In this document: piece after piece, positions 3,641 to 43,505 of the stretch | Numbering within the stretch: the stretch's first letter is position 1 | Layout: every line of letters begins with the position of its first letter | Virus record (IMG/VR): IMGVR_UViG_3300007351_000001 | Source of the DNA: a virus | Taxonomy: Duplodnaviria > Heunggongvirae > Uroviricota > Caudoviricetes | Reading direction: 5' to 3' (one strand) | Length of the DNA stretch: 64,000 nt | Translations under genes and position numbers: made by a program | Notes under the pieces: model-generated | The model's database searches: none | What the model saw: the letters and a program-made list of their open reading frames with translations, nothing else | Told to the model about the DNA's origin: nothing

Positions 3641-3669
3641 CCGGGACAAAAGTGCGAGAAGTGTGCCAA
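3641..3669 (-). promoter_or_regulatory. sigma54-like conserved promoter motif, copy 1 (TTGGCAC-acttc-TCGCAC-TTTTGTCCCGGT on gene strand)
   Basis: GTGCCA at 3663-3668 and TGCGA at 3653-3657 on the plus strand. The motif is followed by AGGAGGAA RBS and the ATG of 3153..3623. Confidence 0.6.
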
Positions 3670-3885
3670 TCACGCTGCCGGCTCGGCCGGCTCTGGGGCA
3701 TTCCGCTGCCGATCGCGCAGAGCCTGCCAGCACGGAGAGCTGCACGTATCCCACTCCCGTTCGAGCGCCTTGGTGGTGAAGAACTCCGAGCGCCGTCCGC
3801 AGATGACGCACGCGGCGAGGCGCTCGGCACGGGTGCAGGAGCACTCGCCGGGGTAGATGGCGTGCCGGGCGGTGTGCGTGCTCAT
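3670..3885 (-). CDS. small Cys-rich protein (71 aa), possible zinc-binding
   Basis: ORF track; CxC...CxxC pattern; 4-nt overlap with 3882..4223. Confidence 0.5.
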   Translation of the reverse strand: MSTHTARHAIYPGECSCTRAERLAACVICGRRSEFFTTKALEREWDTCSSPCWQALRDRQRNAPEPAEPAA

Positions 3886-4223
3886 TCGGTGATGAACGGC
3901 AGCTCGGCGAGGCTGCCGTGCCGGCAGTGGCCGATCGGCTCGATCTCGTAGATCGTGCCGTCCTCCTCGACGATCAGGTCACCGACGCTCAGTGAGCGCT
4001 CGGCGTTGGGGAAGGCCTTCCGGACCTCGGGGTTCTCCTGCCAGAAGGCCACGATCGAGTTGCAGAGCTGGAACACCTGCCCGCGATCCTCCGCGATGAC
4101 GATCGCCGCCGGAATGTACTCGGCCGGATCGAGCGGGTGCGCGAGGCGCGGTCCGGTCGAGGCTTCGTGCGCGGTGCGGAAGGTGTTCAGGCCAACCTTG
4201 TGGTAGATCGTGAATGTCGCCAT
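3882..4223 (-). CDS. hypothetical protein (113 aa)
   Basis: Protein-like ORF; start codon abuts motif copy 2 (leaderless-like arrangement). Confidence 0.7.
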   Translation of the reverse strand: MATFTIYHKVGLNTFRTAHEASTGPRLAHPLDPAEYIPAAIVIAEDRGQVFQLCNSIVAFWQENPEVRKAFPNAERSLSVGDLIVEEDGTIYEIEPIGHCRHGSLAELPFITE

Positions 4224-4252
4224 ACCGGGACAAAGGTGCGAGATCTGTGCCA
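4224..4252 (-). promoter_or_regulatory. sigma54-like conserved promoter motif, copy 2 (CTGGCAC-agatc-TCGCAC-CTTTGTCCCGGT then ATG)
   Basis: Fills the 30-nt gap between the stop of 4254..4682 and the start of 3882..4223. ATG follows CCCGGT immediately. Confidence 0.6.
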
Positions 4253-4253
4253 G

Positions 4254-4682
4254 CTAGTCCAGATTGACGCCGGCCGCGTCCGCGAGCGTACACAGCATGT
4301 GGTCGAGGGTGCCACCGTCGAGCCGACCCAGCTGCCCGTTCAGTAGTCCGCGGATGCCGATCAGAATGTCTCGGAAGTTCGGCCCGAGCACGCCATCGTC
4401 ACCGATCACGCTCTCGTAGCGCTCGGCGTGCGCGTCCGCATAGCGAGCGGCGCCGACGATGAGTGGTACCAGCGCCGCCTCGAACTTCCAGGCGCCGTCC
4501 CTGTCAGGCTGGTCGGGGTCGTGGTCGGGAACAAACGGGTACCAGGCCGTCAGGAAGTCAGCCTGCCAGTCCGGCCGACCACTTGGTGTAGAGAACGCCC
4601 CAACCATGCCGCGCGCACGGCGCGGGCGCGCGTCGCTAGTGAGTTTCTCCAGTGTCCGCTCGATCGCGTCCATCGCGGTCAT
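4254..4682 (-). CDS. hypothetical protein (142 aa)
   Basis: ORF track, protein-like. Confidence 0.7.
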   Translation of the reverse strand: MTAMDAIERTLEKLTSDARPRRARGMVGAFSTPSGRPDWQADFLTAWYPFVPDHDPDQPDRDGAWKFEAALVPLIVGAARYADAHAERYESVIGDDGVLGPNFRDILIGIRGLLNGQLGRLDGGTLDHMLCTLADAAGVNLD

Positions 4683-41423: not shown

Positions 41424-41878
41424 TGTACCAACAAGTGCAAGCTGACCTCTGGTCGTACCCGGCCGACTGGCGAGTCGTCACGACTAATGGCTTCACGCGC
41501 AAAGACGGCACCGCCGTCATGGGTCGCGGCATCGCGGCGCAGGCGCGCACGAAGTACCCCGAGCTGGAGCGCAAGCTCGGCTTGCAACTGCGCGTCACCG
41601 GAAACGTCGTCTACGTCTTCCCCGAGTACAAGATCATCACGTTGCCGGTGAAGCCGACGCGTGGGCCGGACGGCACGCCCGGCTTCATGGTCGCGGCCGA
41701 TCCCATCCTGATCGGGGAGAGTCTTGTACAACTCGTGCGACGGAACCTGGACGGTGTGATCGCCATGCCGCGGCCAGGATGTGGCAACGGCAAACTGGAT
41801 TGGGCCACACAGGTCAAGCCGATCTGTGACCTCGTGCTCAAAGACGACCGCTACGTGGTGGTCGATTGGGAGGAGTGA
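41423..41878 (+). CDS. macro-domain-like protein (151 aa), putative ADP-ribose binding or hydrolase
   Basis: WRVVTTNGFTRKDGTAVMGRGIAAQARTKYPEL resembles the macro-domain N-terminal glycine-rich signature. Confidence 0.5.
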   Translation: MYQQVQADLWSYPADWRVVTTNGFTRKDGTAVMGRGIAAQARTKYPELERKLGLQLRVTGNVVYVFPEYKIITLPVKPTRGPDGTPGFMVAADPILIGESLVQLVRRNLDGVIAMPRPGCGNGKLDWATQVKPICDLVLKDDRYVVVDWEE

Positions 41879-41881
41879 GCG

Positions 41882-42967
41882 GTGGCAGTGAAAGCGGTCA
41901 AGAAACGAAAGGCCGGCAGCACCAAAACGGCCGACGGGTTCCAGGCGTTGCTGAAAGACCTGCGCGAGAACATGGAGGAGGGTGCAGTGCGCCTGGCCTC
42001 TGAGGGGTTCGACTCTGACGTGAAGATGTGGATCCCGACCGGGTTCACTCAGCTCGACGTCCTGCTGAAGGGCGGGATCCCGGTTGGACGCATCGTCGAG
42101 ATCTACGGCCGGGAAGGTAGTGGGAAGACGACGCTCGCTACGCAGATCATGGCGAGCTGTCAGCGCATGGGCGGCGTGGCGATCCTCCTCGACTCGGAGT
42201 CGAAGTTCTACCCCGAGCGCGCCAAGCTCATGGGCGTCGACTTGAACCAGTTGCTCACGGTGCGCGCCAACACGGTCGAGAAGGGGTTCGCCTACATCCT
42301 GCAGATTCTGCCGAAGGCACGCGAGCACATGGCGGCTGACTTGCCGGTGGTGGTGGTGTGGGACACGATCGCCTCTGCGCCGACAGAAGCGGAGTTCGAC
42401 GCGCAGACTGAAGGCGACGACCCGTTCAAGCGCGGCATGATGGAGAAGCCGCGCATCATCAAGCAGGCGATGCGGGTCGGCGCGACACTGCTCAGCCAAA
42501 CCCAAGTCTCGCTGGTGCTGATCAACCAGATCATGGAGACGCAGCACGGGGACCGGCCACCGGGCGGCACTGGTATCCGGCACCAGACGTCAGCGCGCAT
42601 TCAGATGTACCGCACCGGCGAGGAGGGGGCTGAGGTCTCGTTGCAGGCACGCATCCGCAAGCTGCAGCTCGACGGGCCGCAGTCCGGCACCGACCGCGTC
42701 GACCTCGTCATCCGCCCACACGGCGGCGCCGACCACGTCTCGATGTTGGAGTACCTCGCGACGCAGAAGGCGTGCGCCGAGATCACCAAGAGCGGCGGTT
42801 GGTACACGATCGGGTTCAACGGCACCGACCACAAGGCACAGCGCTCGACCATCGAGCAGAAGGTCATGGAAGTCGACGGCTTGTCTGACTTCTTGAAGGA
42901 CCGGACAACCTTCTACATGCTCGGGATGGCTGGGTACGAGCAGTGGAAGCAGATGCATTCGCGGTGA
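41882..42967 (+). CDS. RecA/UvsX-like recombinase (361 aa)
   Basis: GFTQLDVLLKGGIPVGRIVEIYGREGSGKTTLA (Walker A in RecA context), Walker B VVVVWDTIAS; GGGAGGAG RBS. Confidence 0.8.
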   Translation: MAVKAVKKRKAGSTKTADGFQALLKDLRENMEEGAVRLASEGFDSDVKMWIPTGFTQLDVLLKGGIPVGRIVEIYGREGSGKTTLATQIMASCQRMGGVAILLDSESKFYPERAKLMGVDLNQLLTVRANTVEKGFAYILQILPKAREHMAADLPVVVVWDTIASAPTEAEFDAQTEGDDPFKRGMMEKPRIIKQAMRVGATLLSQTQVSLVLINQIMETQHGDRPPGGTGIRHQTSARIQMYRTGEEGAEVSLQARIRKLQLDGPQSGTDRVDLVIRPHGGADHVSMLEYLATQKACAEITKSGGWYTIGFNGTDHKAQRSTIEQKVMEVDGLSDFLKDRTTFYMLGMAGYEQWKQMHSR

Positions 42968-42971
42968 CGGT

Positions 42972-43505
42972 ATGCGATACGGAGGATTGCGGTTGCTGGT
43001 GCCGCCGCCTACTGACGAAGTGCGCCGAGGGGAACGGCAGTTGCTCCTGGCAATGATGGACGACGCGCAAACGTGTCTGCGTACGGCGATGACGAACTCC
43101 CGCACGTTCTGGGACACCTACGTGTGGATGTACGACCGCAGGTGCTCGGCGCCGTTCTCCTTCGAGGATACCTGCATCTATCTCCGGCTCGATCCGGAAG
43201 CAGTCCGCGATTGCCTGCGCCGCGACTTGCAGCGGCGGTTCCCGAACGGCATCCCACCGCTCTACGACGAGGACCCGCATGAACAACGTGCCCGAGCCGC
43301 TCGCGCCGGGGGTGATGCTCAAGCTCTTTCGTCCCCCAAACCCCAAAACCCAGCAGATGGGGTTCGAGATCATCGTGTCCGATCAGAACGACAACGAAGC
43401 CGTGCAGCGGCTGAAGCAGCTGGCCAGCGAGATCCGGGGACTCGCCGACCCAGCCTAGCTGGCACGGCTCCTGCACGTTTGTACCGGTTGGAGGTCTACC
43501 AGTGA
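42972..43505 (+). CDS. hypothetical protein (177 aa as ORF; the last ~70 codons are low-complexity and contain motif copy 6, so the true end is probably earlier)
   Basis: N-terminal 100 aa protein-like (MRYGGLRLL...PLYDEDP). Confidence 0.4.
   Translation: MRYGGLRLLVPPPTDEVRRGERQLLLAMMDDAQTCLRTAMTNSRTFWDTYVWMYDRRCSAPFSFEDTCIYLRLDPEAVRDCLRRDLQRRFPNGIPPLYDEDPHEQRARAARAGGDAQALSSPKPQNPADGVRDHRVRSERQRSRAAAEAAGQRDPGTRRPSLAGTAPARLYRLEVYQ
43279..43458 (+). CDS. small protein (59 aa, MNNVPEPLAPGVMLKLFRPPNPKTQQMGFEIIVSDQNDNEAVQRLKQLASEIRGLADPA) in an alternative frame
   Basis: Clean ATG-to-TAG ORF ending one nt before motif copy 6; not in ORF track (<60 aa). Confidence 0.45.
   Translation: MNNVPEPLAPGVMLKLFRPPNPKTQQMGFEIIVSDQNDNEAVQRLKQLASEIRGLADPA
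43459..43492 (+). promoter_or_regulatory. sigma54-like conserved promoter motif, copy 6 (CTGGCAC-ggctc-CTGCAC-GTTTGTACCGGTTGGAGG)
   Basis: TGGCAC 43460-43465, CTGCA 43471-43475, then TGGAGG RBS and GTG 43502. Confidence 0.55.

What the first reader, a model, noticed from the sequence alone, without database searches (positions are those of the whole stretch)
3641..43492. Six copies of a ~30-bp sigma54-architecture promoter motif (YTGGCAC-N5-TCGCAC-NTTTGYNCCGGT) immediately upstream of genes
The motif is seen directly at 3641-3669(-), 4224-4252(-), 9058-9090(-), 13741-13790(-), 23911-23940(+) and 43459-43492(+).

- All six copies are oriented toward a start codon 0-35 nt downstream.
- Three are followed by a GGAGG-type RBS (copy 6 by TGGAGG) and one (4224-4252) abuts the ATG, implying a leaderless or near-leaderless mRNA.
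- TGGCAC-N5-TTGCA is the established -24/-12 consensus of RpoN promoters, and five copies carry the invariant GG and GC dinucleotides at the right spacing.
- A further ~12 conserved nt (TTTGTnCCGGT) lie where the transcription start would fall.

I found no other TGGCAC site in the window with a matching -12 element.

The rest is inference. The motif is either a set of RpoN-dependent phage promoters, which would be unusual and would need an activator (none is recognisable here; the MoxR ATPase lacks GAFTGA). Or it is a phage-specific promoter/operator class recognised by a phage factor: an ECF sigma at 29152 and a Mor-like activator at 59772 are present.

Strong GGAGG Shine-Dalgarno usage together with sigma54-like elements also constrains the host clade: Actinobacteria and Deinococcus-Thermus lack RpoN.
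Basis: partly seen in the sequence, partly recalled or inferred. Interest (0 to 1): 0.85.

Follow-up and report, generated by a model that had tools for sequence, protein, structure and literature searches.

The report
Sigma54-like leaderless promoter in jumbo phage
A 29-base sequence repeated six times in this stretch of a large uncultured phage sits directly in front of genes and looks like a promoter of the rare sigma-54 (-24/-12) type. The same sequence also heads genes in integrative islands of related uncultured GC-rich bacteria, so mobile elements of one host lineage appear to share an unusual, probably host-read, switch.

Summary
There are exactly six copies of TGGCAC-N5-(TC/CT)GCA(C/G)-N-TTTG-YN-CCG(G/A)T, all co-oriented with a gene that starts 0-25 nt downstream. 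Chance expectation is 0.02.

A sigma-54 matrix built from 29 ChIP-supported Salmonella sites ranks these six as the top six of 127,970 positions in the window. They score 13.8-18.0 bits, within the range of genuine sites; the next position scores 10.2.

The motif is not phage-specific. Twenty-six further distinct instances head leaderless-type genes (start codon 0-5 nt after the motif in 25 of all 32 instances). These genes lie in GC-rich metagenomic contigs, several of which look like integrative islands carrying integrase, resolvase and RadC cassettes.

Because conservation ends at the start codon, its upstream edge lies near -26. That leaves no room for a -35 element and fits only -24/-12 geometry.

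My best reading (about 0.5) is a host RpoN-type promoter with the start near the conserved C-G step.

Against it:
- No activator, GAFTGA motif or shared upstream enhancer was found.
- TTT at -8 to -6 is as invariant as GG.
- The host is unknown.
- One related contig is binned with Mycobacterium, a clade without rpoN.

The Mor-like gene is real.

The parts
3640..3668 (-). Motif copy 1: TGGCACACTTCTCGCACTTTTGTCCCGGT. It is followed by AGGAGG and then the ATG at 3623 of a 156-aa gene (3153-3623). It begins 1 nt after the stop codon of the upstream ORF. The start predicted from -24/-12 geometry is near 3642.
4224..4252 (-). Motif copy 2: TGGCACAGATCTCGCACCTTTGTCCCGGT. It abuts the ATG at 4223 of a 113-aa gene (3882-4223), with no Shine-Dalgarno sequence. 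It matches 14 of 16 bases of E. coli/Salmonella glnAp2 (TGGCACAGATTTCGCT).
9058..9086 (-). Motif copy 3: TGGCACGGTCCTCGCACCTTTGCGCCGAT. It abuts the in-frame ATG at 9057 of a 534-aa gene (7453-9057; phrog_2319; the homologue in Tunturiibacter phage Tunturi_5 is annotated RecT-like).
13753..13781 (-). Motif copy 4: TGGCACGCGATTCGCAGGTTTGCACCGGT. It is followed by AGGAGG and then the ATG at 13740 of a 78-aa gene. It heads the leftward gene block.
23912..23940 (+). Motif copy 5: TGGCACGCTCTTCGCACCTTTGTACCGGT. It lies in the 226-bp divergent intergenic region, 25 nt before the ATG at 23966 of a MoxR-like AAA+ gene. That gene opens the long rightward replication block.
43460..43488 (+). Motif copy 6: TGGCACGGCTCCTGCACGTTTGTACCGGT (-12 element CTGCA). 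It is followed by TGGAGG and then the GTG at 43502 of a 275-aa gene. It begins 1 nt after the upstream stop codon. It has the highest sigma-54 PWM score of the six (18.0 bits).

Best explanation
The 29-bp motif is a compact promoter of the -24/-12 (sigma-54/RpoN) class, read by the host RNA polymerase holoenzyme.

Proposed layout (inferred):
- TGGCAY supplies the -24 GG element.
- TCGCA or CTGCA supplies the -12 GC element.
- The invariant TTT(G) at about -8 to -5 is the easily melted patch in otherwise GC-rich DNA.
- Transcription starts at the invariant G of the C-G step in CCGGT, which is motif base 27.

The transcripts then begin GGU followed by one of two things. Either a GGAGG ribosome-binding site follows (sites 1, 4 and 6), or the start codon follows within 0-5 nt. 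The latter gives leaderless-type mRNAs at window sites 2 and 3 and at most instances elsewhere.

What is shown: the motif, its position and orientation, its match to an independent sigma-54 model, its occurrence in unrelated mobile elements, and the geometric constraint.

What is inferred: the transcription start, the identity of the holoenzyme, and how the promoter is activated. Activation is presumably by a host AAA+ activator acting without a nearby enhancer, or by a factor encoded outside the window.
For: 1. Independent model. A PWM built only from 29 ChIP-chip-supported intergenic Salmonella sigma-54 sites (PMC3844500 Table 3) scores the six sites at 13.8-18.0 bits. Leave-one-out scores of the genuine sites run from 13.1 to 20.7, and glnA scores 13.4. 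The six are the top six of 127,970 window positions, and the next scores 10.2. Shuffled sequence gives 0.84 hits of at least 13.1 bits, with a maximum of 4 in 200 shuffles.

2. The unusual C in TCGC also occurs in the classical glnAp2 promoter, TGGCACAGATTTCGCT. That sequence is present in 5417 of 5426 E. coli genomes and is listed for glnA.

3. Geometry. In 32 distinct instances, conservation stops 0-5 nt before the start codon in 25 cases and abuts it in 6. The start must therefore lie at or before motif base 30, which puts TGGCAY at about -26 to -29. There is no conserved sequence where a -35 element would be. A 16-18 bp spacer from TGGCAY would place a -10 element on or after the start codons. 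The -24/-12 rule predicts a start at a fully conserved purine preceded by a pyrimidine in 27 of 32 instances.

4. The same motif heads genes in GC-rich (64-68%) contigs, several of which look like integrative islands. The headed genes include an integrase, resolvases, and paralogous ~205-aa genes flanking RadC. These contigs share no candidate recognition protein with the window; only one 87-aa gene fragment is shared. A host-encoded reader is the simplest explanation.

5. A 38%-identical homologue of the site-3 gene in another contig (L027) carries a canonical TGGCAC-N5-TTGC at the same distance from its ATG, without the rest of the motif (12.9 bits).

6. Precedent: a sigma-54-like promoter has been reported in Pseudomonas phage YuA (PMC10914365).
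Against: - No sigma-54 activator was found. There is no PF00158 hit, no GAFTGA-like loop and no RpoN box in any frame of the window or of any fetched locus.
- No upstream enhancer-like motif is shared by the six sites. In alignments of motif regions upstream of homologous island genes, conservation begins sharply at TGGCAC.
- TTT at -8 to -6, A at -11, and the C and G of CCGGT are as invariant as GG (32 of 32). The sigma-54 consensus does not require this.
- Two instances, both upstream of resolvase genes, keep the downstream half but lack the -12 GC.
- The host is unknown. One related 3.7-kb contig is binned in a 'Mycobacterium sp.' MAG. From established knowledge, Actinobacteria lack rpoN.
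- Only 64 kb of the 241-kb phage contig could be examined.
Confidence: 0.5

Rival explanations
1. The motif is a promoter read by machinery that a mobile element supplies: a phage-encoded sigma-like factor or RNA polymerase encoded outside this window. The islands that carry the motif would then be satellites or sensors that switch on only when such a phage infects.
For: - About 21 of 29 positions are conserved, including the putative initially transcribed bases. That is more typical of phage-polymerase promoters than of host promoters.
- No host-type activator or enhancer is evident.
- The phage and one island share an 85%-identical gene fragment, so they meet in the same cells.
- Integrase and resolvase genes sit under the motif, which would suit induction by a helper phage.
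- 177 kb of the phage is unseen.
Against: - No sigma, RNA polymerase or other shared candidate factor was found in the 64-kb window or in up to 20 kb of each island.
- The supposed ECF sigma is an unsupported ORFan.
- The unconserved N5 gap between two blocks one helical turn apart is unlike T7-type promoters.
- Chance resemblance of an unrelated motif to the sigma-54 consensus at the right offset and orientation is roughly 5e-5 by my own estimate.
- No motif copy was found in 2.9 million IMG/VR viral contigs.
Confidence: 0.25
2. The motif is mainly a binding site for a regulatory protein. One possibility is a tandem binder of the two TSGCAC half-sites, which are spaced 11 bp apart. The site would overlap a weak, unrecognised promoter and act as operator or activator site.
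For: - TGGCAC and TCGCAC form a direct repeat with one-helical-turn spacing.
- Conservation extends beyond what any sigma factor needs.
- Genes for integration and excision are typically operator-controlled.
Against: - The polymerase must still bind within about 30 bp upstream of start codons that abut the motif, and no other conserved element exists there.
- No sigma-70-type -10 element (TANNNT) lies 6-8 nt upstream of the start codons.
- No DNA-binding protein is shared between phage and islands.
- Strict co-orientation with genes and the fixed short distance fit a core promoter better than an operator.
Confidence: 0.12
3. The motif is an RNA-level signal in polycistronic transcripts. It could be a translation-initiation enhancer that replaces the Shine-Dalgarno sequence, or a processing site.
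For: - Twenty-five of 32 instances lie 0-5 nt before a start codon that has no Shine-Dalgarno sequence.
- Three window copies start 1 nt after an upstream stop codon, so they could be intercistronic.
Against: - Where a GGAGG follows, the distance to the start codon varies from 12 to 25 nt.
- The predicted consensus structure is weak (-4.5 kcal/mol) with essentially no covariation.
- There is no Rfam match.
- Copies 4 and 5 head gene blocks, copy 5 in a divergent intergenic region where a promoter is needed.
- The motif has no complementarity to the anti-Shine-Dalgarno sequence.
Confidence: 0.05

Closest known systems
Sigma-54 (RpoN) -24/-12 promoters, e.g. enterobacterial glnAp2 (TGGCACAGATTTCGCT)
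   Same: - TGGCAY-N5-YYGCW, with GG and GC 12 bp apart.
- Scores lie within the range of ChIP-supported Salmonella sites.
- There are no -35 or -10 elements.
- A purine start is predicted about 12 nt after the GC.
   Different: - Another 12 conserved bases (C-N-TTTG-YN-CCGRT) follow the -12 element.
- No enhancer or activator is detectable.
- The products are leaderless-type or very short-leader mRNAs.
- The promoters sit on a lytic-type jumbo phage and on integrative islands.
- The host is unknown.
Sigma-54-like promoter of Pseudomonas phage YuA (Ceyssens et al. 2008, as cited in PMC10914365)
   Same: A phage promoter with -24/-12 features, in a phage that also has another promoter class.
   Different: YuA has a single such promoter. 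Here a strongly conserved extended motif recurs six times in 64 kb and is shared with non-phage elements.
T7-type single-subunit RNA polymerase promoters (about 23 bp, -17 to +6)
   Same: - A long, nearly invariant, multi-copy motif.
- It is oriented with genes.
- The conserved block includes the start site.
   Different: - There is an unconserved 5-bp gap between the blocks.
- No phage RNA polymerase is seen in the window.
- The motif also occurs in islands.
Start-associated sequences of Cluster K mycobacteriophages, and stoperators of Cluster A (from my own knowledge)
   Same: Short asymmetric multi-copy motifs placed just upstream of genes and oriented with transcription.
   Different: - The start-associated sequences contain the ribosome-binding site; this motif does not.
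- Stoperators are 13-14 bp repressor sites scattered in tens of copies.
- Neither resembles -24/-12.
Bacteroidetes primary-sigma promoters (-33 TTTG / -7 TAnnTTTG; from my own knowledge)
   Same: cAnnTTTG lies a few bases upstream of the predicted start.
   Different: - There is no -33 TTTG.
- The phage uses GGAGG ribosome-binding sites, which Bacteroidetes largely do not.
- The match to sigma-54 is far more extensive.

Membership tests
Sigma-54-dependent (-24/-12) promoter | GG and GC dinucleotides 12 bp apart (10 intervening bp) within TGGCAC-N5-TTGCW | tested here: met
   All six window sites have GG and GC in register. Across the 32 compiled instances GG is present in 32 of 32, and G and C at -13/-12 in 31 of 32 each. 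The -14 base is C rather than T, as in glnAp2.
Sigma-54-dependent (-24/-12) promoter | Score within the range of experimentally supported sites under an independent position matrix | tested here: met
   With a PWM from 29 Salmonella ChIP-chip intergenic sites, the six sites score 13.8-18.0 bits. Genuine sites score 13.1-20.7 in leave-one-out tests. The six are the top six positions of the window, and 0.84 hits are expected by chance.
Sigma-54-dependent (-24/-12) promoter | Transcription start about 11-14 nt downstream of the GC | not testable with these tools
   There are only indirect indications. All 32 start codons lie at least 2 nt downstream of the predicted start. The predicted +1 is an invariant G preceded by C in 27 of 32 instances.
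Sigma-54-dependent (-24/-12) promoter | The organism that reads it encodes RpoN | not testable with these tools
   The host is unknown. No RpoN box was found in the window or in any locus. One related contig is binned as Mycobacterium sp., an rpoN-less clade, but the bin assignment of a 3.7-kb contig is weak evidence.
Sigma-54-dependent (-24/-12) promoter | Dependence on an AAA+ enhancer-binding activator (GAFTGA loop), usually with an upstream enhancer | tested here: not met
   There is no PF00158 hit and no GAFTGA-like motif in the window or the loci. There is no shared upstream motif. Conservation starts sharply at TGGCAC in alignments of motif regions upstream of homologous island genes. 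A host activator acting from solution is not excluded; PMC3844500 shows that an activator lacking its DNA-binding domain can work this way.
ECF or other sigma-70-family promoter served by a phage sigma | A sigma-70-family protein encoded by the element | tested here: not met
   ORF 29152-29703 has no Pfam, PHROG or PDB match, and only itself plus three short partial matches among 1.84 billion representative proteins. The single-sequence structure model was too poor to use (pLDDT 42). No Sigma70 domains occur in any window ORF.
ECF or other sigma-70-family promoter served by a phage sigma | -35 and -10 elements 16-18 bp apart, with the start 6-8 nt after the -10 | tested here: not met
   With TGGCAY as the -35 element, the -10 would be NCCGRT and the start would fall on or after the start codons. 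These abut the motif in 6 instances and lie within 5 nt in 25 of 32.
T7-type phage RNA polymerase promoter | A phage-encoded RNA polymerase and a contiguous conserved block from about -17 to +6 | tested here: inconclusive
   No RNA polymerase was found in the 64-kb window, but 177 kb of the contig is unseen. The motif has an unconserved N5 gap. It also occurs in islands in which no polymerase gene was annotated.
Start-associated translation motif (mycobacteriophage Cluster K type) | The motif contains the ribosome-binding site and sits at a fixed distance from the start codon | tested here: not met
   The motif contains no Shine-Dalgarno sequence. The distance to the start codon is 0-25 nt in the window.

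The most novel reading that the evidence does not exclude
The motif is a portable, self-contained promoter cassette of -24/-12 geometry. It needs no nearby enhancer and produces leaderless mRNAs. A 241-kb phage and integrative islands of one uncultured GC-rich bacterial lineage share it. Two versions are possible:
- Both plug into one host stress-activated AAA+ activator. The phage encodes two PspA/IM30 homologues, and PspA is the protein that restrains the sigma-54 activator PspF in enterobacteria.
- The islands eavesdrop on a phage-supplied factor, so that their integrase, resolvase and RadC cassettes fire only on infection.

Either version would be a previously undescribed way for mobile elements to time gene expression.
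Probability: 0.18. Interest if true: 0.85.

Novelty: new variant of a known kind. Interest (0 to 1): 0.62.

Why it matters
Phages are thought to rely on sigma-70-type host promoters or on their own polymerases and sigma factors. Sigma-54 promoters are silent without an ATP-driven activator and have been reported in phages only as isolated cases.

Here a sigma-54-type motif recurs in front of early and replication gene blocks of a jumbo phage. It also heads integrase, resolvase and RadC-linked genes of islands in the same gene pool. If the reading is right, a whole community of mobile elements is wired to one tightly gated host switch, and it translates the products without leaders.

If the host turns out to lack RpoN, the motif instead defines a new promoter class that mimics -24/-12 geometry.

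Either way, the 29-mer is a simple probe for linking uncultured phages, islands and hosts in metagenomes.

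Tried and rejected
- **Close relatives.** No DNA match in INPHARED. The polymerase, recombinase, portal and 534-aa proteins reach only 25-34% identity to cultured phages of mixed hosts, so they give no host signal.
- **Motif in IMG/VR.** Zero hits with both a strict and a relaxed pattern.
- **Motif in 185,579 species genomes.** Seven hits, about what chance gives. Four are one orthologous Roseateles/Rubrivivax sigma-54-like site. Only L023 is a true relative.
- **Fetching the window's own 241-kb contig.** Failed.
- **Related loci by back-translation.** Failed.
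- **Shared upstream enhancer.** None beyond shuffled controls.
- **RNA structure and Rfam.** A weak stem without covariation; only tRNAs matched.
- **T4-type late promoter TATAAATA.** Not enriched.
- **Sigma-70 consensus scan of 9-25 kb.** No enrichment.
- **The 'ECF sigma'.** No support from PDB or exhaustive HMMER searches; the structure model was unusable.
- **Region upstream of the Tunturiibacter phage homologue.** No -24/-12 site.
- **Taxonomic naming of island genes through cluster look-ups.** Only '[bacterium]' was returned.
- **The ~205-aa family in other collections.** No plasmid or phage match.
- **Literature.** Motif fragments and sample accessions returned nothing relevant.
- **Sigma-28 (-10 GCCGATAA) and T4 MotA-box architectures.** Considered and rejected on spacing and on the missing partner elements.

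Full report
**Observation**

The window holds exactly six copies of a 29-bp motif, TGGCAC-N5-(TC/CT)GCA(C/G)-N-TTTG-YN-CCG(G/A)T. They lie at 3640-3668(-), 4224-4252(-), 9058-9086(-), 13753-13781(-), 23912-23940(+) and 43460-43488(+).

- Allowing three mismatches adds no further copy, and dinucleotide shuffles give 0.02 matches.
- A 36-bp matrix separates the six sites (44-51 bits) from the next best position (4.4 bits).
- Each copy points at a gene whose start codon follows after 16, 0, 0, 12, 25 and 13 nt.
- Sites 1, 4 and 6 are followed by (A/T)GGAGG.
- Sites 2 and 3 both abut ATGGCGAC. A 93%-identical homologue of the site-3 gene on another contig has the same length and is called from the same ATG directly after the same motif.
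- Sites 1, 2 and 6 start one base after the stop codon of the preceding gene.

**Context**

The window is part of a 241-kb metagenomic contig. It has 65% G+C, ten tRNA genes and the start of a T4-type portal gene at 63349.

The rightward block that begins at site 5 encodes:
- a MoxR-like AAA+ protein and its partner;
- a ligase, helicases and a primase;
- a family-A polymerase fused to a uracil-DNA glycosylase domain;
- gp32-like and UvsX-like proteins;
- RtcB, two PspA/IM30 proteins, YqiJ and flotillin;
- NAD-salvage enzymes and a Mor-like protein.

No cultured phage is close. My own ORF map puts copies 4 and 5 at the heads of the two large gene blocks (copy 5 in the divergent intergenic region) and the other four inside gene arrays.

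**Is it sigma-54-like beyond the eye?**

I built a matrix from the 29 intergenic sigma-54 sites that ChIP-chip supports in Salmonella (PMC3844500 Table 3). None of the present data went into it.

- It scores the six sites at 13.8-18.0 bits.
- The genuine sites score 13.1-20.7 in leave-one-out tests, and glnA scores 13.4.
- The six sites are the six best of 127,970 window positions, and the seventh scores 10.2.
- Shuffled sequence gives 0.84 positions of at least 13.1 bits.
- The generic pattern TGGCAY-N5-YYGCW finds the same six sites and nothing else.
- The one deviation, C at -14, is shared with glnAp2 (TGGCACAGATTTCGCT). Site 2 differs from glnAp2 at 2 of 16 positions.

**The motif is not confined to the phage**

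A pattern scan of JGI metagenomes returned nine GC-rich contigs with the extended motif, besides ordinary bacterial TGGCAC-N5-TTGCA sites. A scan of species genomes returned one relative (L023).

In these contigs the motif precedes members of an unannotated ~205-aa protein family, whose N-termini resemble MPRxRDFxL. The ATG or GTG lies 3-4 nt after the motif. Searching with that family and fetching its contigs gave instances that did not depend on the motif pattern.

These loci have 64-68% G+C. The longer ones carry integrases, resolvases, an IS5 element, RadC, restriction-type genes and giant surface or RHS proteins, so they look like integrative islands rather than phage. The motif heads paralogous ~205-aa genes on both sides of RadC, resolvase genes and an integrase.

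I compiled 32 distinct instances: 6 from the window, 9 found by pattern, and 17 found by homology or matrix scan. Across them:
- GGC, the A after GC, TTT, and the C and G of CCGGT are invariant.
- The G and C at -13/-12 are each present in 31 of 32.
- The N5 and N positions vary freely.
- Twenty-five instances have a start codon 0-5 nt after the motif (13 at exactly 3 nt, 6 abutting) with no Shine-Dalgarno sequence.

In an alignment of six motif regions upstream of homologous island genes, four follow a RadC gene. There the RadC coding end is conserved, an unalignable spacer of variable length follows, and conservation resumes sharply at TGGCAC.

The window and the islands share only an 87-aa gene fragment, at 85% identity. 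They therefore exchange DNA but share no visible candidate for a dedicated recognition protein.

**Geometry**

The polymerase must start at or before start codons that abut the motif. The whole promoter therefore lies within the 29 bp, and TGGCAY sits at about -26 to -29.

- Nothing is conserved where a -35 hexamer would be.
- If TGGCAY were a -35 element, the -10 would be NCCGRT, and the start would fall on or beyond the start codons.
- No TANNNT lies 6-8 nt upstream of the start codons.
- The -24/-12 rule puts +1 on the invariant G of the C-G step, 2-3 nt before the earliest start codons.

Homologues of the site-3 gene add two points. In a 38%-identical homologue (L027), a canonical TGGCAC-N5-TTGC sits at the same distance from the ATG without the rest of the motif. 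Another homologue (L028) has TTGACA-N18-TAAGAT-N7-ATG, a sigma-70 leaderless arrangement. This gene heads a transcription unit and is leaderless in several lineages.

**What does not fit**

Sigma-54 holoenzyme needs an AAA+ activator, and I found no sign of one.
- There is no PF00158 hit, no GAFTGA-like loop and no RpoN box in the window or any fetched locus.
- There is no shared upstream motif.
- Activators lacking a DNA-binding domain can work from solution (PMC3844500), so this weakens the reading without excluding it.

Other difficulties:
- The invariant TTT and CCGGT are not part of the sigma-54 consensus.
- Two instances, both before resolvase genes, lack the -12 GC but keep the downstream half.
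- The host is unknown. Cluster look-ups gave only '[bacterium]'.
- One 3.7-kb relative is binned in a Mycobacterium MAG. If that were the true host, sigma-54 would be excluded. However, the near absence of the motif from 185,579 species genomes argues that the host lineage is simply poorly sampled.

- ORF 29152-29703 is not supported as an ECF sigma.
- The Mor-like protein is real, but the motif has none of the architecture known for Mor/C-activated promoters. That comparison rests on my own knowledge.
- The MoxR-like protein matches AAA_5 and does not match the sigma-54 activator family.

**Verdict**

The motif is almost certainly a promoter; I put that at about 0.85. Its best-supported identity is a -24/-12, RpoN-type promoter read by the host (about 0.5).

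The rivals, in order, are:
- a reader supplied by a mobile element, with the islands as satellites or sensors (about 0.25);
- a regulator site overlapping an unrecognised promoter (about 0.12);
- an RNA-level signal (about 0.05).

A sigma-54-like promoter is on record for Pseudomonas phage YuA (PMC10914365). I therefore rate this a new variant of a known kind: an extended, multi-copy, enhancer-less, leaderless-type version shared between a jumbo phage and integrative islands. Fragments of the extended motif do not appear in the searchable literature.

Noticed in passing
window 47892-55194: A phage-borne membrane-stress module: two PspA/IM30 homologues (47892-48596 and 52084-52695), RtcB (50498-51925), YqiJ/NfeD-like (52698-53384) and flotillin (53398-55194). 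In enterobacteria both the psp and rtc operons are sigma-54-dependent, and PspA inhibits the activator PspF. That may or may not be a coincidence here.
   Followed up: partly
window 202-275 (-): ARAGORN calls a tRNA with a four-base anticodon (ctgg) and undetermined identity. Rfam confirms a tRNA here at 52 bits. It could be an eight-membered anticodon loop or a caller artefact.
   Followed up: no
window 21786-22463 (-); L004 14249-14509; L035 18175-18435: The C-terminal 87 aa of a 225-aa phage protein without any Pfam match are 85% identical to a gene on an island-like contig (86% DNA identity over 662 bp). This points to recent exchange between the phage and the islands.
   Followed up: partly
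L030, L031, L032, L033, L037-L041 (e.g. L030 8765-10621): A conserved cassette: a ~208-aa gene, RadC and a ~206/228-aa paralogue, often followed by a 67-aa gene. The two paralogues have no Pfam match, and each has its own motif copy and a leaderless-type start. The cassette lies next to integrases, restriction-type genes and giant surface proteins. It may be an anti-defence or establishment module.
   Followed up: partly
window 34125-37445 (+): A family-A DNA polymerase with an N-terminal uracil-DNA glycosylase superfamily domain (PF03167, residues 68-212).
   Followed up: no
window 34018-34100 and 32632-32671: Short direct repeats in intergenic DNA of the replication block: GCGAACTTTTTT(T)CA twice upstream of the polymerase gene, and CATGTTTCA twice upstream of 32672. 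They could be a terminator, an origin or a regulatory element.
   Followed up: no
window 10415-11849: A 1.4-kb stretch with no confident ORF in my codon-usage map, inside the leftward gene block.
   Followed up: no
window 12558-12587 (-): The only sigma-70-like consensus match in 9-25 kb (TTTACA-N18-TATGGT). It lies in the 60-bp gap upstream of the 225-aa gene at 11850-12527.
   Followed up: no
L027 4400-4525: Upstream of the homologue of the 534-aa gene, three copies of TGTCAGCGCATTG. Two form an inverted repeat and one overlaps the TGGCAC of a canonical -24/-12 site. This looks like an operator or enhancer arrangement.
   Followed up: no
   Followed up: no
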